64,000 nt of DNA. Source: Escherichia coli (lineage in GTDB: Bacteria > Pseudomonadota > Gammaproteobacteria > Enterobacterales > Enterobacteriaceae). Shown in pieces: positions 4,256 through 41,845 of the stretch. Under the pieces are notes generated by a model. It made no database searches. It saw only the letters and a list, made by a program, of their open reading frames with translations, and was not told the origin of the DNA. The stretch lies in assembly GCF_044324875.1 (NCBI RefSeq), contig NZ_CP172185.1; one strand, written 5' to 3'. Each line of letters starts with the position of its first letter. Position 1 is the stretch's first letter. A program made the translations under genes and the position numbers.

Positions 4256-4275
4256 CTTGACCTTCCCCTTGCTGG
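4256..4275. repeat. attL core (direct repeat copy 1)
   Basis: 20/20 identity with 39269..39288; lies 70 bp downstream of the int stop. Confidence 0.8.
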
Positions 4276-4344
4276 GGACAAAGAACTGCGTGGTGTAAAA
4301 TAACACCACGCAATATCAATAAGTTACATAACCACTTTAACTCT

Positions 4345-5388
4345 CTACCTCCCTTTTTCCTCAAAATGTGGACACTCAATGGACATATCACATAGCGGAT
4401 TATGCATCACAGCATCGCTTAAATAATCCGGCGAAAAATGCGCATAAGTCATTGTCTGAGATATATCTGCATGACCGAGGATTTTTTGAAGAGAAATAAT
4501 ATTCCCCCCATTCATCATAAAATGGGTGGCAAATGTATGCCTCAATACATGAACCGCTTGACCGTCCGGCAAATTAGGCTTAGCCACCTTCAGTTTCAGC
4601 CTAAACCATTTATAACTCACCCGAAATAAACGCCCCTCCTTGCGATGTTTTACAAGCCTAACAACATCATCAGAAACAGGAACAACCCGACGCTTATTAT
4701 TTTTTGTGAAATTAAATACAACCTTATTACCGATAATATGTTCCCCCATTAGCTGATATGCTTCATTCCAGCGACAGCCTGTAGACAACAAAAGGACAGC
4801 CATTCGGTAATAATCTCCCGAACCCTTGCAGATAGAAAGAAACGCACCAATCTCTTCATGATTAAGATAAGCCATCTCTGGGGTTTTTTCCTTGAGGCGA
4901 GGAAGCGACAATACAGGGTTACTACCGTGATATTCACCAATCTCTGCCATAGCCTTTAACGCAGCGCTAAACGCAAAAAGATCATGGTTGATTGTAGATG
5001 CCTTAACCCCTTGATCGAGACGGCGCGATCTATATTCAGCAACCATGCGTTCATCAATCTCGTACATCATAGGGTCACCCATATCAAGACAAATACACTG
5101 GAGGTTATTCAGTCTACGATTCGCGTAATCCTTGTGACGACCTATCAGTAACCACCACGTCGCAATGAAATCGCTTAAATATCGCTTGTCCAGAAGATTA
5201 CCGAAAACATCAACAGAAGGGCGATCAGCAAGAACTTCGCGTTCAAATGCTACAGCCAGATTTTTTTTCTCAAACTTCCGACGAATGCGCCTTCCCTTAC
5301 TTCCGTCGGGTCGAATGTCCACAAAATAGCGACCATCTTCGAGCTTCTTAATTGACATAAGAAGACCCTCCAACAGTCCATTCTCCAT
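4345..5388 (-). CDS. int: Tyrosine integrase, P2 Int family
   Basis: 347 aa; N-terminus MSIKKLEDGRYFVDIRPDG...RRIRRKFEKK and C-terminal HxLRHTFATHF...GHADISQTMTYAHF catalytic region resemble P2 Int as recalled. Confidence 0.92.
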   Translation of the reverse strand: MENGLLEGLLMSIKKLEDGRYFVDIRPDGSKGRRIRRKFEKKNLAVAFEREVLADRPSVDVFGNLLDKRYLSDFIATWWLLIGRHKDYANRRLNNLQCICLDMGDPMMYEIDERMVAEYRSRRLDQGVKASTINHDLFAFSAALKAMAEIGEYHGSNPVLSLPRLKEKTPEMAYLNHEEIGAFLSICKGSGDYYRMAVLLLSTGCRWNEAYQLMGEHIIGNKVVFNFTKNNKRRVVPVSDDVVRLVKHRKEGRLFRVSYKWFRLKLKVAKPNLPDGQAVHVLRHTFATHFMMNGGNIISLQKILGHADISQTMTYAHFSPDYLSDAVMHNPLCDMSIECPHFEEKGR

Positions 5389-5427
5389 CTTGAAAACAGA
5401 TAGAGAAAACGTATTCCTTATAAAGAG

Positions 5428-5727
5428 TTAACCAGTCTGTTTCCCTGATTGGGGTGACGTTGTTTCGACGTGCCCACAGTGTGCGAGAGCCGGGGCTATT
5501 TGCCCGTGTTCTGGGTCGATGCGGTCATACATAAACCAATTCTGATACTTATGAAAACGGGGGTGACCAAATATCTTAATTGCAGATTCCAATGTCATCT
5601 TAGATTTGTCACGCTCATAGCCGTGATAGGTTGTGTAATTAAGCCCTACTAAATCAACAAATTGCTGTTTTGTTAGCCTTTCCGAATCTCGCATGATCGC
5701 TAACTTTTCACCTTGAGTATTTGACAT
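5428..5727 (-). CDS. C: Immunity repressor, P2 C family
   Basis: 99 aa, same length as P2 C; C-terminal QIAPALAH...ETTSP...G motif resembles P2 C as recalled; divergent from the cox-like gene. Confidence 0.85.
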   Translation of the reverse strand: MSNTQGEKLAIMRDSERLTKQQFVDLVGLNYTTYHGYERDKSKMTLESAIKIFGHPRFHKYQNWFMYDRIDPEHGQIAPALAHCGHVETTSPQSGKQTG

Positions 5728-5768
5728 ATTTACGAGTACTCCATATAGTTACGCAAAAACAACATTCC

Positions 5769-5810
5769 TAGCCTAAAACGGCAAAACACCGTCAAAGGCC
5801 GATTAGGCTA
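5769..5810. promoter_or_regulatory. Nested inverted repeat (tagcctaa ... ttaggcta) in the C / cox-like divergent promoter region; candidate repressor operator
   Basis: 8-bp perfect inverted arms at 5769..5776 and 5803..5810 with inner partial symmetry; sits in the lysogeny/lysis switch intergenic region. Confidence 0.4.
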
Positions 5811-5851
5811 AGCAAGCCTCAATCAATGGCAACCTTGGAGTGTATCAAAAA

Positions 5852-6340
5852 ATGGCAAAACAACGAGATTTTGAACAAATCACGACACATCAGCATTGCC
5901 GTCTCTATCCATTAGACGGCTACATCACGATGAACGTGTGCAAAATGAGTTCAACGCAGGCTGGACGCATACGTGATATGAGTCTGAGCGACTTACAACA
6001 ACAGGAGTTTGTTAGCCCAGAGGAGTTTGCATACATCACGGGGCGCACCTACAAAGCAGCCAAAAACATCATGGACCGAAACGAAAGCCTGCTTATTAAG
6101 GAATACGCCACGCCAGACGCAACACGACCTAAGCGATTTATCAGACTCCAGCACTACTGGGCCGCAATTATCAACAACAAAGCATCGCTGACACCACGCG
6201 AGCATCTATTTATCAATGAGATTCGAAACAACAAAACGCTTTACCGCGAGATGATGAAAATCAATCTCAAGATTCGCGAAGGGCGAGAAGTCTCGAAAAA
6301 AAAACCAAGATACTCCCATCAATCGCAATCAGCGGCATAA
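5852..6340 (+). CDS. Cox-like excisionase/regulator domain protein (162 aa from ATG at 5852; the ORF track opens at GTG 5840)
   Basis: Position equivalent to P2 cox; central region (EFAYITGRTYKAAKNIM...LQHYW) loosely resembles the Cox winged-helix; GGAG Shine-Dalgarno 11 nt upstream of ATG 5852. Confidence 0.5.
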   Translation: MAKQRDFEQITTHQHCRLYPLDGYITMNVCKMSSTQAGRIRDMSLSDLQQQEFVSPEEFAYITGRTYKAAKNIMDRNESLLIKEYATPDATRPKRFIRLQHYWAAIINNKASLTPREHLFINEIRNNKTLYREMMKINLKIREGREVSKKKPRYSHQSQSAA

Positions 6341-6500
6341 CACCAAAAGGAGTTTTCCCATGTGCGACCTGAGCAAAGCAGAGCTAATTGCAATCATATT
6401 GTTTGCCATAGATTTTGGTTTTCTTTTGAGCGGCGCAATTCTCCTTCCTGCAATTAACAGGAAAAATTAATCACCACTGCAAATAACAAGAGCCAACAAC

Positions 6501-7992: not shown

Positions 7993-8478
7993 TTAGCGGG
8001 AAGCGCCAACCGTAAGGCTGGCAATGATTTTTTCGGAGAGTGAGAGAGATTCGCGATGATTAAGACCAAGAGCAGCACAAGCTTTATTGCGCGCCGGGTT
8101 GTCCATGCATTCAAGCACCGGAGAGTCCTGCTTCTCAATTTCCACCAGTCGCGCCAGCAACACCTCCGTGCTGAGACCGTCGCTTTCAGTAATCAGGACG
8201 TTATAGCGATGAGCCTGTTCTTTTGCAGCCTGAGCGCGTCGCCCAAATTTCCAGGCGATATTGCAGCCACTAAGCACAGCCACGATACCACCCAGCAACC
8301 AACTGAAATTGCTGCCTGCAAACACAGTAGCCCCAGACGTAAGGATGACAGCATTAATCACCGTATCCATACGGCGGTTAAACACCTCCGAAATATGTTC
8401 AATCCAGTAACTGTTCCAGAGACGAAACATGACCTCGTGTCGCCGTTCGGCATGATTTTCAGTTGGTTGTCTGTTCAT
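7993..8478 (-). CDS. Two-transmembrane-helix small membrane protein (161 aa), oriented against the early operon
   Basis: Two adjacent hydrophobic helices (VINAVILTSGATVFAG; FSWLLGGIVAVLSGCNIAW) followed by a charged helical tail; opposite strand to every neighbouring early gene; 243-bp upstream region of its own. Confidence 0.6.
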   Translation of the reverse strand: MNRQPTENHAERRHEVMFRLWNSYWIEHISEVFNRRMDTVINAVILTSGATVFAGSNFSWLLGGIVAVLSGCNIAWKFGRRAQAAKEQAHRYNVLITESDGLSTEVLLARLVEIEKQDSPVLECMDNPARNKACAALGLNHRESLSLSEKIIASLTVGASR

Positions 8479-9596: not shown

Positions 9597-9815
9597 ATGG
9601 CAAACCGCAAACAGCGCCGCGCTACTGCGGAGCATCACCACGTCCGCGCCCAAATCGACAAACGCCTTTTCCGCGCATCACGCGTTGCACGCATCATGCA
9701 CATCAACATGCTGCATGAACGCAGAGGGGCACTACCGAACACCTATATCGCCTCCGTTTTCAGCTATCTGGCGGACGATCTCGCCGAGCTGCAACGCCTC
9801 ATTAACCAGCACTGA
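9597..9815 (+). CDS. Hypothetical protein (72 aa)
   Basis: ORF preceded by an AAGAGG Shine-Dalgarno at 9584..9589. Confidence 0.45.
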   Translation: MANRKQRRATAEHHHVRAQIDKRLFRASRVARIMHINMLHERRGALPNTYIASVFSYLADDLAELQRLINQH

Positions 9816-10259: not shown

Positions 10260-12749
10260 ATGGAGTTCGTCAGAGACTGGCAAAAACCGCGCCCCGCTAT
10301 CGGGCGCGAAGGCTTACCCGTACCTGAAACCGCACTGGATACCATCCTGAAGTGTTACCGCGCAGACGAAGAGCGCGCACTGCACGCTGAAGAGCAGGGT
10401 CATCCGCTTGCGGGCACAACCATCGGTAACGCGATCGACAAGTGGGAAGGCGCACAGGAGCGCCAGGAAGAGGCCATCACGCTCACACAGGAAGCGAGAA
10501 GACACCCGCCCACCCTTATTGAGGAAACCCTCAAAGAGCTGGACACCCTGCCCAAGTGGTTGAGGCTGCCGCTGATTAAGCACCTGAACTTTTTAAGGCG
10601 CAAACAGGAGGACGAACAGCAGAAAGGCAAGCGCGGCAAGGACACCCGCAAATATGAGCGCTTCCTGAAAAACGGCATCCCCGCACGTCTTCGCCGTATT
10701 CGTGAGATTAACGCTCGCTTTGCACCGTTAAGTTTTCAGGCCGCTGCCATGCGCGAGAGTCTGGAAGAACTGATCACACTGCCGAACCTGAGCCGTGAAC
10801 GCATCCAGAAAATAGCCGTACTGCTTGCCAGCGCCGTTAAAATGCATCTTGCCGACGCAATGGACAAGGCCCGCGAAATAACAGGGAACGACAAAGACGA
10901 CAACCTGAACAACTGGCTGATTGCCTACCAGTATATTGGTCGCCGTGTCCTGAAGCTGGGGATCACCCCACCATACTGGAGCGCCCTTGAACTCCGCCCC
11001 GACCGCAGAAGCCCCCCGGACGTGACACTGGTTCCGGGCGCTGTTTTGCGCCTGAACGACGCCGAATGGTGGAATAAAAAACTTCGCCAGATGCACGACG
11101 TCTGGCGTGAGGAACTTTTACGTGCAGCGGGCCTTGTATCCCGCCAGACCTCCGTTTATGTGAGCCGTGAAGCGCTGGCAGACTTCCGCGAAAAACAGGC
11201 CCGTACCCGCGATTTTCTCAAAGCGCACGACGTGGAGAACGAAGACGGCGAACGCATCAGTCTGGAAGATATCTACTACGCCAGTACATCCAACCCGCAT
11301 AACCGCCGCAACGAGATGATGGCGTGCGTTAAGGGAATGGAGCTTATCGCACAGGAACGCGGCGACGTGGCCTTCTTCGTCACGGTCACAGCCCCGTCTC
11401 GTTTTCACAGCGTCACCGACGCAGGCACGCTGAACCCGAAATACAAAGGCGCAACCGTAAAGGACGCCAGCGACTATCTGGTTTATAACTTCTTCGCCTC
11501 CGCCCGCAAACTCATCAAAAAAGAGAAGCGGGGCTGGTACGGCATTCGCACCGTGGAGCCTCACCACGACGGCACGCCCCACTGGCACATGCTGGTATTC
11601 ACAAGCCCTGAGAACGAAGAGCGCATCACGGAAATCATGTGCAATGCCGCCATTCGCGAAGACCGGGCAGAGCTGGGCGACGACATCACCCCGCGCTTCA
11701 AGTGCGAGAAGATAGATCCCGAAAAAGGCACGCCAACCAGCTACATCGCCACCTACATAGGCAAAGGCATTGACGCCGCTGCATTCGGCGACACGGATCC
11801 AAAAACAGGTAAACCGCCCGTTGACCACGAAAGCGGAAAACCTATGGCGGACACCGTGGAAAACGCCGTCGCCTGGGCGCGCCTGCATCGCATTCGCCAG
11901 TTCCAGTTCTTTGGCCTCCCTTCCCGTCAGGTGTGGCGTGAGTTCCGCCGCCTTGCCGGACAAATGGCACGCAACCCGAAGGGGCCGCAGGCACTGACCA
12001 ACCCCAAAGCCGACGCCCTCCTTGTTGCAGCCGATACGGGGTGTTTTGCCAGCTACATCATGCATCAGGGCGGTGTGCTCATTCCCCGTAGTGAATATCT
12101 GGCCCGCACAGCCTACGTCACCGCAGAAGAGCCGAACAATTACAGCGAATTCCCCGAGCGCATTTACGGTATCCGCATGCCGGAACTGGGGGAGGACTTC
12201 ACGTTATGCACCCACCCGGAAGAGTGGAAAATCGTCAGAAAGGAACCGGAACCAGACAACCGCACGGGCGAGGGTTTTGACCTTCAGGGCGGCCCCGCCG
12301 CCCCTTGGACTCGTGGCAATAACTGTCACCCTGACGAAAAAACAACCAACAACAGCACACAAACCGGACAGTCAGAGTGGGCAAAACTGCCCCCCTTACC
12401 CCCATCGTCGGACGGTTTTGTGAGCTGGTTTAAGTCGCTTAAGAGGCCGGACAGGAAAAAACTACAAAGATTGCTCAAAAAACGCACCGAAGAGAGTCGC
12501 CAGAACGCCAGCGGCGGCACCGACACACCCACCGACACCATTAACCTGGGCGTTGTGCTGCCGGAACTGCCGGAAATCGTGCAAGTCCGCCGCGATCTGG
12601 AAGCGCTGGGCGCGGACTTCCCCGAAGCAATGGCCCATTCCGTCTTTATGGGTGCCCGCGTTCGTCTGGGTAACGGTCGCACCGTTCACCGCGACGAGCA
12701 GACCGGGCGCATCACCGTCACCAGTCTGCAACCGGAGGCGAAACCATGA
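10260..12749 (+). CDS. A: Replication initiation protein, P2 gene A family (rolling-circle endonuclease)
   Basis: 829 aa; contains an HUH-type metal-binding motif (HDGTPHWHMLVF) and a downstream tyrosine motif (SYIATYIGKG), as in rolling-circle initiators; position as for P2 A. Confidence 0.85.
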   Translation: MEFVRDWQKPRPAIGREGLPVPETALDTILKCYRADEERALHAEEQGHPLAGTTIGNAIDKWEGAQERQEEAITLTQEARRHPPTLIEETLKELDTLPKWLRLPLIKHLNFLRRKQEDEQQKGKRGKDTRKYERFLKNGIPARLRRIREINARFAPLSFQAAAMRESLEELITLPNLSRERIQKIAVLLASAVKMHLADAMDKAREITGNDKDDNLNNWLIAYQYIGRRVLKLGITPPYWSALELRPDRRSPPDVTLVPGAVLRLNDAEWWNKKLRQMHDVWREELLRAAGLVSRQTSVYVSREALADFREKQARTRDFLKAHDVENEDGERISLEDIYYASTSNPHNRRNEMMACVKGMELIAQERGDVAFFVTVTAPSRFHSVTDAGTLNPKYKGATVKDASDYLVYNFFASARKLIKKEKRGWYGIRTVEPHHDGTPHWHMLVFTSPENEERITEIMCNAAIREDRAELGDDITPRFKCEKIDPEKGTPTSYIATYIGKGIDAAAFGDTDPKTGKPPVDHESGKPMADTVENAVAWARLHRIRQFQFFGLPSRQVWREFRRLAGQMARNPKGPQALTNPKADALLVAADTGCFASYIMHQGGVLIPRSEYLARTAYVTAEEPNNYSEFPERIYGIRMPELGEDFTLCTHPEEWKIVRKEPEPDNRTGEGFDLQGGPAAPWTRGNNCHPDEKTTNNSTQTGQSEWAKLPPLPPSSDGFVSWFKSLKRPDRKKLQRLLKKRTEESRQNASGGTDTPTDTINLGVVLPELPEIVQVRRDLEALGADFPEAMAHSVFMGARVRLGNGRTVHRDEQTGRITVTSLQPEAKP

Positions 12750-13292: not shown

Positions 13293-13667
13293 ATGAATAA
13301 ACAGGATTTTGGACTTGATACCCTTTTGAGTATGCATGGTTACCAGCATCACATGGATAACGGGTACTGGTGGAAAATTGAGGCTTACCGGGTAAGTCCA
13401 AGTCCGTTCAGACCTCACGGGATACGCTACAATCTGACGTTACATGACCGCTACAATTCGCGTGTGTTTGGTATGGACAACGCACATGGAATAAAACCGC
13501 CAAAGAAGGGAAGATTTACAGGAAAGTTAACTGTTTATGATCATGTGCACCGTACCCCGGTGGATAAAGGTTATCCCTATGAGTTTGTATCCGCAGAACA
13601 ATTGTTATCTGATTTCTTTGATAACGTTGATCGGCTCATTAACGAAGTTACAAAGGGGAAAGCATGA
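13293..13667 (+). CDS. Hypothetical small protein (124 aa), first gene of an overlapping two-gene module in the A-to-Q cargo region
   Basis: ORF with own upstream promoter-like region (direct repeats atgatttgtt / atgatttatt); stop overlaps the next start (ATGA). H/Y/W-rich; no motif I can assign with confidence. Confidence 0.6.
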   Translation: MNKQDFGLDTLLSMHGYQHHMDNGYWWKIEAYRVSPSPFRPHGIRYNLTLHDRYNSRVFGMDNAHGIKPPKKGRFTGKLTVYDHVHRTPVDKGYPYEFVSAEQLLSDFFDNVDRLINEVTKGKA

Positions 13668-14050
13668 AAGCCCGCATCGGGATCATCCCGGAAAAAGTCC
13701 TGCGTCAGCGCCTGATTGAAATTGCCAAGGGGGAGCGGAAACCACACCCCGACGAGCCAAGGGTATGGTTTTCATCCATCAATGCGGCGGGTCAGGCGCT
13801 GAGCAATGAAAATATCTCCCTTCTTCGTCTTATGGATGAGGAGAAACCGCAGACCATGACCGAACTTGCGGAGTTATCCGGCAGAAAACTGAGTAACCTG
13901 TCTGTAACCCTGAAAATGCTGAGCAGCTACGGTTTTGTCAGTCTGGAAAAGAAAGGAAATACCGTACACCCGAAGGCACTTTTTACCGATTTTGAAATCA
14001 TCGTTGATCCGTCCGTCGGTTCAGTACATCGCGCCACCGCCCGCCCCTGA
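13664..14050 (+). CDS. Putative winged-helix DNA-binding protein (128 aa), second gene of the two-gene module
   Basis: Central MarR/winged-helix-like segment (MTELAELSGRKLSNLSVTLKMLSSYGFVSLEKKG); translationally coupled to 13293..13667. Confidence 0.6.
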   Translation: MKARIGIIPEKVLRQRLIEIAKGERKPHPDEPRVWFSSINAAGQALSNENISLLRLMDEEKPQTMTELAELSGRKLSNLSVTLKMLSSYGFVSLEKKGNTVHPKALFTDFEIIVDPSVGSVHRATARP

Positions 14051-14063
14051 AGTGTGCAATAAA

Positions 14064-39203: not shown

Positions 39204-39268
39204 CTTCAAAAATGGACACTACGTGGACACTGATTAAATAATCCTTTCTTAATCAGACTGTTAAAATG

Positions 39269-39288
39269 CTTGACCTTCCCCTTGCTGG
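39269..39288. repeat. attR core (direct repeat copy 2)
   Basis: Identical to 4256..4275. Confidence 0.8.
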
Positions 39289-39340: not shown

Positions 39341-41845
39341 ATGTCACAAACTATCGACCTGACCCTGGACGGCCTGTCCTGCGGTCACTGCGTTAAACGC
39401 GTGAAAGAAAGTCTCGAACAGCGCCCGGATGTTGAGCAGGCGGATGTGTCTGTCACTGAAGCGCACGTTACCGGGACTGCCAGTGCAGAACAGCTGATCG
39501 AAACCATCAAACAAGCGGGTTATGACGCATCTGTAAGCCACCCAAAGGCTAAACCGCTGGCGGAGTCATCAATCCCGTCGGAAGCACTGACAGCGGTTTC
39601 TGAGGCGCTTCCGGCAGCGACCGCCGATGACGATGACAGCCAGCAGTTGCTGCTGAGCGGCATGAGCTGCGCCAGCTGTGTCACCCGCGTACAAAATGCG
39701 TTGCAAAGCGTACCGGGCGTCACTCAGGCACGGGTAAACCTGGCGGAGCGTACTGCGCTGGTGATGGGCAGTGCCTCCCCACAAGATTTAGTGCAGGCGG
39801 TGGAAAAAGCGGGCTACGGCGCGGAAGCGATTGAAGATGACGCTAAACGCCGCGAGCGCCAGCAGGAAACCGCCGTCGCTACGATGAAGCGCTTCCGCTG
39901 GCAGGCAATTGTCGCACTGGCGGTGGGTATCCCGGTGATGGTCTGGGGGATGATCGGCGATAACATGATGGTCACCGCTGACAACCGCAGCTTGTGGTTA
40001 GTTATCGGCCTGATAACCCTGGCAGTGATGGTTTTCGCCGGCGGCCATTTTTACCGTAGTGCATGGAAAAGCCTGCTGAACGGTGCAGCGACGATGGATA
40101 CGCTGGTGGCGCTGGGTACTGGCGTGGCGTGGCTCTATTCGATGAGCGTCAACCTGTGGCCGCAGTGGTTCCCGATGGAAGCGCGACATCTTTATTACGA
40201 AGCCAGCGCGATGATTATCGGTCTGATCAATCTCGGTCATATGCTGGAAGCGCGCGCACGTCAGCGTTCTTCAAAGGCGCTGGAGAAATTACTCGATTTA
40301 ACCCCACCGACGGCGCGCCTGGTCACCGACGAAGGTGAAAAAAGCGTGCCGCTGGCGGAAGTGCAGCCAGGTATGTTGCTGCGCCTGACGACCGGCGATC
40401 GCGTGCCGGTAGATGGCGAGATTACCCAGGGCGAAGCATGGCTGGATGAAGCGATGCTGACGGGCGAACCAATCCCGCAGCAAAAAGGCGAAGGCGATAG
40501 CGTCCATGCCGGGACAGTGGTACAGGACGGCAGTGTGCTGTTTCGTGCCAGTGCGGTCGGCAGCCATACTACGCTGTCACGAATCATTCGCATGGTGCGC
40601 CAGGCCCAGAGCAGCAAGCCTGAAATCGGCCAACTGGCGGATAAAATCTCCGCTGTGTTTGTGCCGGTGGTGGTAGTCATTGCGCTGATCAGTGCGGCAA
40701 TCTGGTATTTCTTTGGTCCGGCACCGCAGATTGTCTATACCCTGGTGATTGCCACCACGGTGCTGATTATCGCCTGTCCGTGTGCGCTGGGACTGGCGAC
40801 GCCGATGTCGATTATTTCGGGCGTCGGGCGGGCGGCTGAGTTTGGTGTGCTGGTGCGGGACGCCGACGCGCTGCAACGCGCCAGTACGCTCGACACCGTG
40901 GTGTTCGATAAAACCGGGACGCTGACCGAAGGGAAGCCGCAGGTTGTCGCAGTAAAAACATTTGCTGATGTTGATGAAGCGCAAGCATTGCGTCTGGCGG
41001 CGGCGCTGGAGCAAGGTTCCAGCCACCCGCTGGCACGGGCGATCCTCGATAAAGCAGGTGATATGCAGCTACCGCAGGTCAACGGTTTCCGCACATTGCG
41101 CGGGCTGGGTGTGAGCGGTGAAGCTGAAGGTCATGCGGTATTGCTGGGCAATCAGGCGCTGTTAAATGACCAGCAAGTTGATACTAAAGCGATTGAGGCA
41201 GATATTTCAGCTCAGGCATCGCAAGGTGCAACGCCTGTGCTGCTGGCGGTTGACGGGAAAGCGGTAGCCCTGCTGGCTGTACGCGATCCGTTGCGTAGTG
41301 ATAGCGTGGCGGCGCTGCAACGCCTGCATAAAGCGGGATATCGTCTGGTGATGTTGACCGGGGATAACCCAACCACCGCCAATGCGATCGCCAAAGAAGC
41401 AGGGATTGATGAGGTGATAGCCGGCGTGCTGCCGGACGGTAAAGCCGAAGCGATCAAACGTCTTCAAAGTGAAGGACGTCAGGTGGCAATGGTGGGCGAC
41501 GGCATTAACGATGCGCCAGCGCTGGCTCAGGCGGATGTCGGTATTGCGATGGGTGGCGGCAGTGATGTTGCCATTGAAACCGCGGCGATTACCCTGATGC
41601 GCCATAGCCTGATGGGTGTTGCAGATGCGCTCGCGATTTCCCGCGCAACGCTGCGCAATATGAAGCAGAACCTGCTCGGTGCGTTTATCTACAACAGCAT
41701 TGGTATTCCGGTCGCCGCCGGTATTTTGTGGCCGTTCACTGGAACACTGCTTAACCCGGTGGTTGCCGGAGCGGCAATGGCGCTCTCGTCGATTACCGTA
41801 GTGAGTAACGCCAACCGGTTACTGCGGTTTAAACCGAAAGAGTGA
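39341..41845 (+). CDS. copA: Copper-exporting P-type ATPase
   Basis: 834 aa; two N-terminal GxxCxxC metal-binding motifs, CPC, DKTGT and GDGINDAP motifs. Confidence 0.97.

What the first reader, a model, noticed from the sequence alone, without database searches (positions are those of the whole stretch)
5728..5851. Nested palindrome in the C / cox-like switch region, and an atypically long Cox-like protein
The immunity region has the P2 layout (int and C leftward, cox-like rightward), but the operator candidate is an inverted repeat rather than the direct repeats I recall for P2 C. The Cox-position protein is about 162 aa rather than about 91 aa, and no clear gene B homolog follows. This suggests a hybrid immunity/early region.
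Basis: partly seen in the sequence, partly recalled or inferred. Interest (0 to 1): 0.3.

Follow-up and report, generated by a model that had tools for sequence, protein, structure and literature searches.

The report
P2-type prophage switch with hairpin spacer
This is the lysis-lysogeny switch of a P2/P88-like prophage in E. coli: the palindrome is real but is probably a structured spacer, not the repressor's operator, and the long Cox-like protein belongs to a common but unnamed family, so the region is an uncharacterised variant of a known design, not a hybrid.

Summary
Coordinates 5728-5851 are exactly the C/cox-like intergenic region, with a perfect 8-bp inverted repeat (5769-5776/5803-5810) and nested inner pairs. 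The Cox-position ORF is 162 aa, and there is no gene B.

The interpretation mostly fails.
- The C repressor is a P2-C homologue. Its probable operators are direct repeats, ATATTTACG/ATAGTTACG, 19 bp apart around the Pe -10. Across 80 related loci these half-sites change with the repressor's recognition helix.
- The palindrome lies in a hypervariable stretch that tracks neither C nor Cox.
- That stretch is self-complementary more often than chance in 34 unrelated spacers, at a conserved position, and P2 has an equivalent repeat. I therefore read it as a secondary-structure element in the leaders transcribed from convergent Pe and Pc. Its function is unproven.
- The long protein has an excisionase/Cox-type winged-helix core plus a conserved 50-aa N-terminal extension under purifying selection. 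It occurs in 34 of 80 related viral contigs but has no Pfam, PHROG or NCBIfam model.
- The early region is collinear with phage P88, which also lacks B and has a 141-aa Cox.

Verdict: a new immunity class and an uncharacterised Cox variant within a known switch type. Modest interest.

The parts
4256..4275 (.). attL core, CTTGACCTTCCCCTTGCTGG. It is repeated at 39269-39288 (attR), so the prophage spans about 4256-39288.
   Evidence: It is the only exact repeat of 20 bp or more between the int-proximal flank and the rest of the window. copA follows attR.
4345..5358 (-). Integrase (tyrosine recombinase).
   Evidence: Pfam Int_N and Phage_integrase. PGAP calls this CDS in the identical E. coli locus.
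5428..5727 (-). C immunity repressor, 99 aa, P2-C family. Recognition helix NYTTYHGYE.
   Evidence: phrog_147, E 3.6e-32, full length. 52% identical to P2 C; the best match in any phage is 59%.
5721..5749 (+). Early promoter Pe, TTGACA-17-TATAGT. The -35 overlaps the C start codon. Predicted transcription start about 5756.
   Evidence: 11 of 12 consensus match and the only hit of the scan; PWM score 16.4. P2 has the same geometry in its annotated Pe, as do all 80 IMG/VR relatives.
5726..5734 (+). Candidate C operator half-site O1, ATATTTACG.
   Evidence: 8 of 9 direct repeat with O2, p about 0.05. Conserved in all phages of the same recognition-helix class and replaced in other classes.
5745..5753 (+). 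Candidate C operator half-site O2, ATAGTTACG. It lies 19 bp from O1 and overlaps the -10.
   Evidence: Other helix classes in the family show the same 19-bp spacing.
5757..5810 (.). Hypervariable segment of the spacer. It contains the palindrome.
   Evidence: 34-54% identity between relatives, against 76-98% in the flanking blocks.
5769..5776 (.). Palindrome left arm, TAGCCTAA.
5803..5810 (.). Palindrome right arm, TTAGGCTA.
   Evidence: It can also pair with AGCCT 5815-5819 in the minus-strand RNA.
5779..5801 (.). Inner nested pairs: CGGC 5779-5782 with GCCG 5798-5801, or alternatively ACGG 5778-5781 with CCGT 5789-5792.
   Evidence: Read directly from the sequence. CGGC/GCCG forms in the plus-strand MFE structures; the minus-strand folds use an extended ACGG/CCGT register, GACGGU/GCCGUU.
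5775..5791 (+). Direct repeat D1, copy 1 (AAAACGGCAAAACACCG). Copy 2 lies at 5849-5865 across the cox-like start codon.
   Evidence: 15 of 17 identical; p about 0.001 against shuffles. Function unknown.
5811..5851 (.). Conserved block. It holds 10-bp units CTAAGCAAGC (5808-5817) and CTCAATCAAT (5818-5827), the box CAAGCCTCAA (5813-5822), and the Shine-Dalgarno GGAG (5837-5840).
   Evidence: 76-98% identity among relatives. Lag-10 self-similarity of the spacer beyond Pe has z = +2.8, as in P2's experimentally defined Cox-box region, z = +2.6.
5839..5847 (-). Probable Pc, an extended -10 TGATACACT on the minus strand. Predicted start about 5832, giving a Pe/Pc transcript overlap of about 77 nt.
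   Evidence: An element TGnTAnAnT abuts the cox-like ATG in 30 of 30 distinct long-Cox loci. Only 'n' and the third and fifth -10 positions vary, and it persists where shifted by 1 to 2 nt. Inferred; not mapped.
5805..5832 (-). Alternative leftward promoter candidate, TTGCCA-16-TAGCCT. Its -10 is the right arm of the palindrome.
   Evidence: Best minus-strand PWM score in the window, 9.1, but the -10 is not conserved in relatives.
5852..6340 (+). Cox-position gene, 162 aa. N-terminal extension codons 1-50 (5852-6001); winged-helix core codons about 51-108 (6002-6175); helical C-terminal part (6176-6340).
   Evidence: - Profile comparison: hhalign to a Cox alignment gives 66%, E 5.5e-5, over residues 53-93.
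- Selection: N-terminal extension dN/dS 0.04-0.15.
- Known families: no Pfam, PHROG or NCBIfam hit.
10260..12749 (+). Replication endonuclease A (P2 gpA family). It closes an early region that has no gene B.
   Evidence: phrog_91, E 1.9e-221. 32% identical to P2 A; no hit for B or for orf78 and orf80-83.

Best explanation
The 124-bp interval is the lysis-lysogeny switch of a P88-like (Peduoviridae) prophage, built on the P2 plan.

Shown or strongly supported:
- A near-consensus early promoter Pe (5721-5749) fires rightward into the cox-like gene. Its -35 overlaps the start codon of the leftward C repressor gene.

Inferred from covariation:
- C shuts Pe by binding two direct repeats, ATATTTACG and ATAGTTACG (5726-5734 and 5745-5753, 19 bp apart), that bracket the -10. 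It does not bind the palindrome.

Inferred from conservation:
- The convergent promoter Pc is probably an extended -10 (TGATACACT, 5847 to 5839) abutting the cox-like ATG. Pe and Pc transcripts would then overlap across about 5756-5832.

The palindrome itself:
- It sits in the hypervariable middle of that overlap.
- It is one instance of position-conserved but sequence-free self-complementarity found in this stretch of P2-type switches, P2 included.
- It most likely acts through secondary structure in the early (cox) leader, the C mRNA leader, or both, affecting transcript stability or translation.
- In the window, the plus-strand fold also pairs ACAUUCC (5762-5768) with the cox Shine-Dalgarno GGAGUGU (5837-5843). 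The minus-strand RNA instead forms two adjacent hairpins.
- The exact effect is not shown.

The 162-aa protein is the Cox analogue. It has an excisionase-type winged helix and presumably represses Pc and directs excision. It also carries a conserved N-terminal domain of unknown role.
For: Architecture
- The geometry is identical to annotated P2 and to 80 of 80 IMG/VR relatives.

Operators
- The Pe core is 86-92% identical among phages with the same C recognition helix, but 46-51% against L004, whose helix differs.
- The Pe core is conserved across genera, in Yersinia and Hafnia.
- Class-specific direct half-sites occur at fixed positions with 19-bp spacing in about a dozen helix classes.
- Published P2, Hy dis and Wphi operators are all direct repeats (PMC1904268, PMC2995052).

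Palindrome not sequence-specific
- The segment is 34-54% identical between relatives, even where C is 91% identical (L005 and L007) or Cox 78% (L004 and L005).

Structure
- Window leader z = -4.5.
- In 17 annotated or related switches, Fisher p = 9e-5 and mean z = -2.3.
- In 34 independent IMG/VR segments, mean z = -1.65 (plus strand) and -1.98 (minus strand), with p = 1.6e-9 and 4e-13, and Fisher p = 2e-5 for the best perfect repeat.
- The left arm of the best repeat starts 32-44 nt after the C start in 23 of 34 segments, against 38% expected (p = 5e-4).
- P2 has TTTAGTGC-N10-GCACTAAA at the same offset. Its annotated Pc -10 places the C mRNA 5' end at the edge of that repeat.

Pc
- TGnTAnAnT is found in 30 of 30 loci.

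Cox analogue
-.
Against: - No binding or transcript data exist for this phage. Pe, Pc and both start sites are predictions.
- Plus-strand and minus-strand RNA score equally, so RNA and DNA roles, and which transcript matters, cannot be separated.
- Some relatives have only weak repeats: L007 has 5 bp, and pro483 has none of 5 bp or more.
- The one natural variant pair examined (L031 and L032) shows arm changes that weaken the repeat rather than compensate for each other.
- The sequences are non-homologous, so true covariation cannot be tested.
- The segments share ancestry and composition, which shuffles only partly control.
- The same stretch has 10-bp periodicity like P2's Cox-box array, so a protein-binding role is not excluded.
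Confidence: 0.5

Rival explanations
1. The palindrome region is part of the binding array of the Cox-like protein. In this reading, helically phased imperfect repeats run from about 5773 to 5832. The arms and the box at 5815-5819 are three copies of AGCCT in both orientations. A protein filament covers Pc and shuts off C synthesis, as P2 Cox does on its boxes.
For: - Lag-10 self-similarity is the top lag in the window (z = +2.8), in P2 (z = +2.6, where the boxes are defined experimentally) and in most relatives.
- P2 Cox protects at least 70 bp through six or more boxes spaced 10-11 bp, in either orientation (PMC3936717).
- Tandem 10-bp units CTNAACAAGC are conserved next to the palindrome.
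- The protein has the excisionase/Cox fold.
Against: - L004 and L005 have near-identical Cox recognition helices (78% identity overall), yet only 34% identity in this segment.
- Matches to the P2 box consensus are only partial.
- No shared motif was found between this region and the 70 bp between the att core and int, where an excision factor should also bind.
- Nested inner complementarity is not expected of a protein array.
Confidence: 0.2
2. The palindrome has no function of its own. It is a chance or recombination by-product in a weakly constrained spacer between the C/operator module and the cox module.
For: - Taken alone it has p about 0.01-0.02, which is unremarkable in a genome scan.
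- The segment is the least conserved part of the switch.
- Published work already notes that C-cox spacers cannot be aligned (PMC3448106).
- L031 and L032 differ by non-compensating changes.
Against: - Fold stability and best-repeat length are enriched across 34 unrelated segments. Repeat position is also clustered.
- The same result holds in an independent set of 17.
- Equivalent 8-bp repeats occur in P2, L013 and L031 at the same offset.
Confidence: 0.2
3. One reading: the palindrome is the operator of the C repressor, making this an inverted-repeat immunity type as in phage 186.
For: - The P2 C dimer is structurally symmetric and resembles proteins that bind palindromes (PMC2995052).
- The P2 C footprint extends to about +16 of Pe (PMC1904263).
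- In the Hafnia and Yersinia relatives a third TTAC half-site 19 bp beyond O2 overlaps the left arm of their own repeats. The window has a weak match at 5764-5772.
Against: - Phages with the identical recognition helix have unrelated sequence at this position.
- The arms do not resemble the conserved half-site.
- The arms are 34 bp apart centre to centre, with nested complementarity.
- C is a 99-aa P2-type protein, not a 186-type CI.
Confidence: 0.05

Closest known systems
Bacteriophage P2 transcriptional switch (C, Cox, convergent Pe/Pc)
   Same: - Gene order int-C leftward and cox rightward.
- Spacer of about 115-125 bp.
- Pe -35 TTGACA overlapping the C start codon.
- C is 99 aa and 52% identical.
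- Direct-repeat half-sites bracket the Pe -10.
- An 8-bp inverted repeat starts 42 nt after the C start in both.
- 10-bp periodicity beyond Pe.
   Different: - Half-site sequence and spacing differ: 19 bp here against 22 bp in P2.
- Pc appears to be an extended -10 abutting the cox ATG, giving about 77 nt of overlap against about 35 nt in P2.
- The Cox-position protein is 162 aa, is not detectable with BLAST or Pfam Phage_Cox, and has an extra N-terminal domain.
- Genes B, orf78 and orf80-83 are absent, and A is only 32% identical.
Escherichia phage P88 (Xuanwuvirus, Peduoviridae)
   Same: - The early region is collinear: cox, DUF4761, DUF4754, small membrane ORF, wHTH, 'derepression protein', phrog_3237-type ORF, A, then ParM.
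- P88 also lacks gene B.
- Its Cox is long, 141 aa, with an N-terminal extension.
- About 77% nucleotide identity from A into the head genes.
   Different: - P88 Cox is a bona fide Pfam Phage_Cox protein, unrelated in sequence to the window protein.
- The C, int and att site differ.
- The C-cox spacers of P88-like phages (PhiR44_2, Chuche) show tandem TAAGCC repeats rather than this palindrome.
Yersinia phage vB_YenM_42.18 (Firavirus)
   Same: - It has the closest isolated-phage C, at 59% identity.
- It is the only isolated phage with a detectable homologue of the Cox-like protein: 33% over the winged-helix and C-terminal part.
- Same Pe geometry, and its own 6-bp inverted repeat in the spacer.
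   Different: - Its Cox-like protein is 107 aa and lacks the N-terminal extension.
- It has a gene annotated as gpB.
Phage 186 switch (CI, Apl, CII; inverted-repeat operators)
   Same: Face-to-face promoters and a Cox/Apl-type dual regulator. This is the P2-like switch type in which inverted-repeat operators are known (PMC1904268).
   Different: 186 CI is about 190 aa, has two domains and is unrelated to C. No CI, CII or Apl homologue is present here.
Phage Wphi switch
   Same: P2-type C with direct-repeat operators. It has a long Pe/Pc transcript overlap (82 nt), comparable to the 77 nt predicted here (PMC1904263).
   Different: Its half-sites are 10 bp long and 34 bp apart. Its Cox is 90 aa and of the Phage_Cox type. 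The C sequences are about 39% identical.

Membership tests
P2-type C immunity repressor | A protein of about 100 aa with an N-terminal HTH and full-length homology to P2 C. | tested here: met
   phrog_147, E 3.6e-32, covering residues 1-99. 52% identical to P2 C.
P2-type C immunity repressor | First gene of a leftward C-int operon, divergent from cox. | tested here: met
P2-type C immunity repressor | Recognises two direct repeats at Pe. | tested here: inconclusive
   Candidate half-sites at 5726-5734 and 5745-5753 (p about 0.05) covary with recognition-helix class across 80 loci. Binding was not tested.
Known P2 immunity classes (I-X) | At least 95% C identity and an alignable spacer with a class member. 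| tested here: not met
   The best phage match is 59%. Only five near-identical E. coli prophages were found in 5426 genomes. The prophage classes VIII-X were not compared directly.
P2-type convergent-promoter switch | A strong Pe next to C, with a weaker convergent Pc inside the spacer and overlapping transcripts. | tested here: inconclusive
   Pe is met. Pc is inferred only from a conserved minus-strand TGnTAnAnT. No transcript mapping.
Cox (Pfam PF10743 Phage_Cox) | Scores above the Pfam gathering threshold. | tested here: not met
   No hit even at E <= 10. The Yersinia homologue scores 13.5 bits against a cut-off of 27.5.
Cox / excisionase winged-helix fold | Xis-type winged helix-turn-helix. 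| tested here: met
   [not shown]
Cox / Apl function | Represses Pc and acts as the excision directionality factor. | not testable with these tools
   Supported only by position (first early gene, always paired with this int/C type) and by fold.
Phage 186-type switch | A two-domain CI of about 190 aa that binds inverted repeats, plus CII. | tested here: not met
   The repressor is a 99-aa P2-C homologue. Pfam, PHROG and PGAP annotation show no CI or CII.
P2 gene B (helicase loader) | A homologue located between cox and A. | tested here: not met
   tblastn best E is 0.43, and that hit lies outside the early region. No PHROG hit. B is also absent from P88.
P88-like (Xuanwuvirus) early region | Collinear set: DUF4761, DUF4754, 'derepression protein', phrog_3237 ORF, A, ParM. 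| tested here: met
Known RNA families (Rfam 15) | A covariance-model match over the palindrome. | tested here: not met
   Only one chance sub-threshold hit, and it lies elsewhere.

The most novel reading that the evidence does not exclude
A position-conserved but sequence-free hairpin module downstream of the Pe start may be a general, so far undescribed third component of P2-type lysis-lysogeny switches, alongside the C operators and the Cox boxes. It would act on the overlapping Pe and Pc transcripts, for example as a 5'-proximal stabiliser of the C-int mRNA or as a gate on cox translation. In addition, the conserved N-terminal domain of the long Cox-like family may define a new subclass of dual regulator and excision factor.
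Probability: 0.25. Interest if true: 0.55.

Novelty: new variant of a known kind. Interest (0 to 1): 0.33.

Why it matters
P2 is the textbook case of a repressor that reads direct repeats and of a switch built from convergent promoters, yet only three operators have been mapped experimentally.

This locus and its roughly 80 relatives offer three things:
- A natural covariation series linking recognition-helix class to half-site sequence at a fixed 19-bp spacing.
- A candidate structural element in the promoter overlap that the accessible P2 literature does not discuss.
- A widespread, unannotated Cox variant with an extra domain.

If the hairpin proves functional, models of transcriptional interference in P2-like switches would need an RNA-level term. 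If it does not, the region is simply one more heteroimmune P2-like prophage. For annotation, the 162-aa family deserves a profile and a name.

Tried and rejected
1. The HQHC...C motif in the N-terminal extension as a zinc site: rejected, because it is not conserved in distant members.
2. The N-terminal extension as a duplicated Cox HTH: hhalign probability is 1%, and there is no PDB sequence match. AF2 on the extension alone is unreliable, with pLDDT 60, so no fold search was run on it.
3. The P2 Cox-box consensus TTAAA(G/C)NC(A/C) gives only partial matches by eye. No convincing motif is shared with the stretch between the att core and int.
4. The promoter candidate TTGCCA-16-TAGCCT, whose -10 is the right arm, is the best scorer in the window. 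Its -10 is not conserved, so it was demoted in favour of the family-wide extended -10.
5. My first impression that the Cox-like family is rare was wrong. It came from 7 clusters and 13 representatives. Those searches collapse or miss close relatives, and the IMG/VR scan found the family in 34 of 80 loci.
6. The near-identical E. coli copies differ only at 5824 and in an A-run, so they say nothing about the palindrome.
7. Rfam, PADLOC, NCBIfam and BFVD Foldseek returned nothing informative.
8. Strand asymmetry of fold energies, tried as a way to tell which RNA is selected, showed no difference.
9. The two 1987 EMBO J papers on P2 Cox and C footprints could not be read. I cannot say whether the P2 inverted repeat was discussed there.

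Full report
**Context**

The window is E. coli chromosome. Positions 5400-6500 are 100% identical to strain LH50-c and occur in only 5 of 5426 complete E. coli genomes. A prophage of about 35 kb lies between glsA and copA. It is bounded by a 20-bp direct repeat, CTTGACCTTCCCCTTGCTGG, at 4256-4275 and 39269-39288. From the replication gene A into the head genes the prophage is about 77% identical to P88-like Peduoviridae.

**Checking the observation**

The spacer holds a perfect 8-bp inverted repeat: TAGCCTAA at 5769-5776 and TTAGGCTA at 5803-5810. Nested inside are CGGC/GCCG, or alternatively ACGG/CCGT.

Against dinucleotide shuffles of the spacer, an 8-bp perfect repeat has p about 0.01-0.02. 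The predicted early leader 5756-5851 folds at -26.5 kcal/mol, z = -4.5.

Further points confirmed:
- The leftward genes are an integrase and a P2-C-family repressor: phrog_147 at E 3.6e-32, and 52% identical to P2 C.
- No homologue of P2 B, orf78 or orf80-83 exists anywhere in the window. A is present at 32% identity.

**Architecture of the switch**

A near-consensus sigma-70 promoter, TTGACA-17-TATAGT (5721-5749), reads rightward. Its -35 overlaps the C start codon. This is exactly the geometry of the annotated Pe of P2. All 80 related loci fetched from IMG/VR show the same geometry.

**Where the repressor probably binds**

I collected relatives of the locus:
- four further E. coli prophages at the same att site (L004, L005, L007, L010);
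- more distant ones (L011, L013);
- cross-genus ones from Yersinia and Hafnia (L030-L032);
- 80 IMG/VR contigs.

Phages whose C has the same recognition helix (NYTTYHGYE) keep the Pe core at 86-92% identity. L004, whose helix is SYSTYGGYE, is only 46-51% identical there.

Within the core, ATATTTACG (5726-5734) and ATAGTTACG (5745-5753) form an 8-of-9 direct repeat 19 bp apart, with p about 0.05 on its own.

In the IMG/VR set, each of about a dozen recognition-helix classes carries its own pair of direct half-sites at the same two positions, mostly 19 bp apart. Examples are TATAAGAG/TATAAGAA, AATGATAA/AATCATAA and ATACTCCA/TTACTCCA.

This matches published knowledge. The mapped C operators are all direct repeats that differ in sequence and spacing:

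| Phage | Half-site length | Spacing |
|---|---|---|
| P2 | 8 bp | 22 bp |
| P2 Hy dis | 8 bp | 26 bp |
| Wphi | 10 bp | 34 bp |

(PMC1904268; PMC2995052.) Actual binding was not tested here.

**What the palindrome is not**

It lies in a segment (5757-5810) that is only 34-54% identical between relatives, while the flanks are 76-98% identical.

The segment differs completely between phages with 91% identical C (L005 and L007). It also differs between phages with 78% identical Cox-like proteins and near-identical recognition helices (L004 and L005, 34%). So it is not a sequence-specific site for either regulator.

P2 itself has TTTAGTGC-N10-GCACTAAA beginning 42 nt after its C start codon, the same offset as here, in addition to its O1/O2 direct repeats. 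An inverted repeat at this place is therefore not an alternative to direct-repeat operators.

**What the palindrome probably is**

Self-complementarity recurs in this stretch without any sequence conservation.

*First set: 17 switches from isolated phages and relatives.*
- The best perfect repeat is longer than in shuffles (Fisher p = 9e-5).
- Spacers fold better than shuffles (mean z = -2.3).

*Second set: 34 non-redundant IMG/VR segments, less than 75% identical.*
- Mean z = -1.65 for the plus-strand RNA and -1.98 for the minus strand (p = 1.6e-9 and 4e-13).
- 10 of 34 have repeats of 7 bp or more.

*Position.*
- The left arm of the best repeat starts 32-44 nt after the C start in 23 of 34 segments, against 38% expected (p = 5e-4).
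- Predicted pairing is enriched at positions 38-62 and 68-85 and depleted in between.

*Other strong examples.*
- L013: GGCAAGCG-N8-CGCTTGCC.
- Hafnia L031: GACATAGT-N14-ACTATGTC with nested CTC/GAG.

Two features fit selection for a folded structure better than a fixed-geometry protein site. Loop lengths vary from 3 to 28 nt, and the complementarity is nested.

**Limits of this inference**
- Plus and minus strands score alike.
- No true covariation test is possible on non-homologous sequences.
- The one natural variant pair (L031/L032) shows non-compensating changes.

**Where Pc may be, and which RNAs carry the element**

The best minus-strand consensus match in the window is TTGCCA-16-TAGCCT (5832 to 5805), which uses the right arm as its -10. 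That -10 is not conserved in relatives.

A stronger candidate comes from conservation. In 30 of 30 distinct loci of the long-Cox family, the minus strand abutting the cox-like ATG reads TGnTAnAnT, an extended -10. Only 'n' and the third and fifth hexamer positions vary, and the element persists even where it has shifted by 1 to 2 nt. In the window this is TGATACACT (5847 to 5839).

That element predicts a start near 5832 and a Pe/Pc overlap of about 77 nt. The reported overlaps are 82 nt for Wphi and about 35 nt for P2 (PMC1904263). Both transcripts would then contain the whole palindrome.

The two RNAs are predicted to fold differently:
- Plus-strand RNA uses the 8-bp arms. It also pairs ACAUUCC (5762-5768) with the cox Shine-Dalgarno region GGAGUGU (5837-5843).
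- Minus-strand RNA prefers two adjacent hairpins, 5824 to 5800 and 5800 to 5770 (z = -2.8).

In P2, the annotated Pc -10 puts the C mRNA 5' end at the outer edge of the repeat's right arm. The repeat would then be a 5'-terminal stem-loop.

Across 36 spacers, the best predicted leftward start coincides with a top-quartile 5'-terminal hairpin in 17 cases (p = 0.003). This rests on noisy promoter predictions.

**A rival reading of the same DNA**

The stretch beyond Pe shows 10-bp self-similarity in the window (z = +2.8), in P2 (z = +2.6) and in most relatives. This periodicity is the signature of Cox-box arrays, which have at least six boxes spaced 10-11 bp in either orientation (PMC3936717).

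Tandem units CTNAACAAGC are conserved at 5808-5827 and in relatives. The conserved block is therefore a good candidate for the Cox-like protein's site over Pc. The palindrome arms, which are further AGCCT copies, might extend that site.

The lack of correlation with Cox sequence argues against a sequence-specific role for the variable part.

**The long Cox-position protein**

*Evidence that it is a real protein.*
- Synonymous sites in codons 1-50 are near saturation (pS 0.54-0.83) while pN is 0.08-0.20, giving dN/dS of 0.04-0.15. Only the coding frame is open.

*Fold.*
- AlphaFold (pLDDT 74, pTM 0.69) predicts a winged helix at about residues 52-106, preceded by a small beta-hairpin and helices and followed by long helices.
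- Profile-profile comparison aligns residues 53-93 to P2 Cox residues 11-50 (66% probability, E 5.5e-5).

*Relationship to known families.*
- It fails Pfam Phage_Cox and has no PHROG, NCBIfam or PADLOC match.
- The N-terminal extension has no detectable relative. Its HQHC motif is not conserved.

*How common it is.*
- The family is not rare. It is the Cox-position gene in 34 of 80 IMG/VR relatives (139-166 aa) and in Yersinia and Hafnia prophages.
- Long Cox proteins are already on record: P88 has 141 aa and pro483 has 123 aa, both with Pfam Cox domains after N-terminal extensions.
- Nilsson et al. noted a larger Cox group (PMC3448106).

**Is it a hybrid?**

No. The early genes run cox-like, DUF4761, DUF4754, a small membrane ORF, wHTH proteins, a 'derepression protein', a phrog_3237 ORF, then A. 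This order matches phage P88, which also lacks B. No 186-type component is present.

What is new is limited to two things:
- An uncharacterised immunity specificity. C is at most 59% identical to any isolated phage's C, and immunity classes share at least 95% (PMC3448106).
- An unannotated Cox variant.

**Verdict**

The locus is a new variant of the P2-type switch. The most interesting lead is the recurrent, position-conserved self-complementarity in the Pe/Pc overlap. It needs transcript mapping and compensatory mutagenesis.

Noticed in passing
window 4256-4275 and 39269-39288; copA ORF 39341-41845: The prophage att core, CTTGACCTTCCCCTTGCTGG, is followed at attR by AAGGTTTAACC. From my own knowledge this is the copA promoter, with its -35 and the CueR-binding dyad. 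Integration therefore happens inside that promoter. The promoter is rebuilt at attR, and a partial copy is left at attL next to int.
   Followed up: partly
window 39214-39236 and 4367-4385: Direct repeats of TGGACAC lie on both sides of the att core. One pair sits inside the 3' end of int. They look like Int arm-type sites. A 7-bp inverted repeat, TGATTAA-N11-TTAATCA, lies between the attR-side pair and the core.
   Followed up: no
window 4289-4311: A perfect 9-bp inverted repeat, GCGTGGTGT-N6-ACACCACGC, lies between the att core and the int stop codon. It could be an int terminator or a recombination-protein site. In P2, this is the region where Cox binds attP.
   Followed up: no
window 6296-6304: An A9 run sits near the 3' end of the cox-like ORF. 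Strain 24A16CRGN010 has A8, which extends the annotated product to 215 aa. This may be a slippage-prone tract.
   Followed up: partly
window 5822 vs 5852: PGAP annotates the same gene from ATG 5852 (162 aa) in LH50-c but from ATC 5822 (172 aa) in strain Ch1. The GGAG at 5837-5840 and the conservation pattern favour 5852.
   Followed up: yes
window 5824: The only substitution among the near-identical E. coli copies in 5400-6500 is C to G at 5824, inside the conserved CTCAATCAAT unit.
   Followed up: no
window 9597-9815: A 72-aa ORF is named 'derepression protein' by PGAP in the identical locus and in P88 gp14. From my own knowledge the name recalls the P4 epsilon antirepressor, which acts on P2 C. 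No NCBIfam or PHROG model matched it here.
   Followed up: partly
window 7993-8478 (minus strand): A leftward 161-aa ORF (phrog_6315, unknown function, with a weak membrane-like Pfam hit) is embedded in the rightward early operon. It may be a moron or an accessory gene.
   Followed up: no
window about 13296-14053 (from L001 15897-16654): Just after gene A, PGAP annotates an adjacent pair: a DUF6516 family protein and an HVO_A0114 family DNA-binding protein. Their arrangement looks like a two-gene accessory module.
   Followed up: no
L031 (Hafnia) and L030 (Yersinia) spacers; window 5764-5772: In relatives with the same C recognition helix, a third TTAC half-site lies 19 bp beyond O2 and overlaps the left arm of their own inverted repeat. 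The window has only a weak match, ATTCCTAGC.
   Followed up: partly
L018 (Salmonella phage SEN5) locus 99-575: SEN5 has a 158-aa protein at the cox position that shows no similarity to Cox or to the window protein. This is another unexplained replacement at this slot.
   Followed up: no
window 5775-5791 and 5849-5865: A 17-nt direct repeat, 15 of 17 identical (p about 0.001), links the inside of the palindrome to the cox-like start codon region (AAAATGGCAAAACAACG). It is absent from relatives and unexplained.
   Followed up: partly
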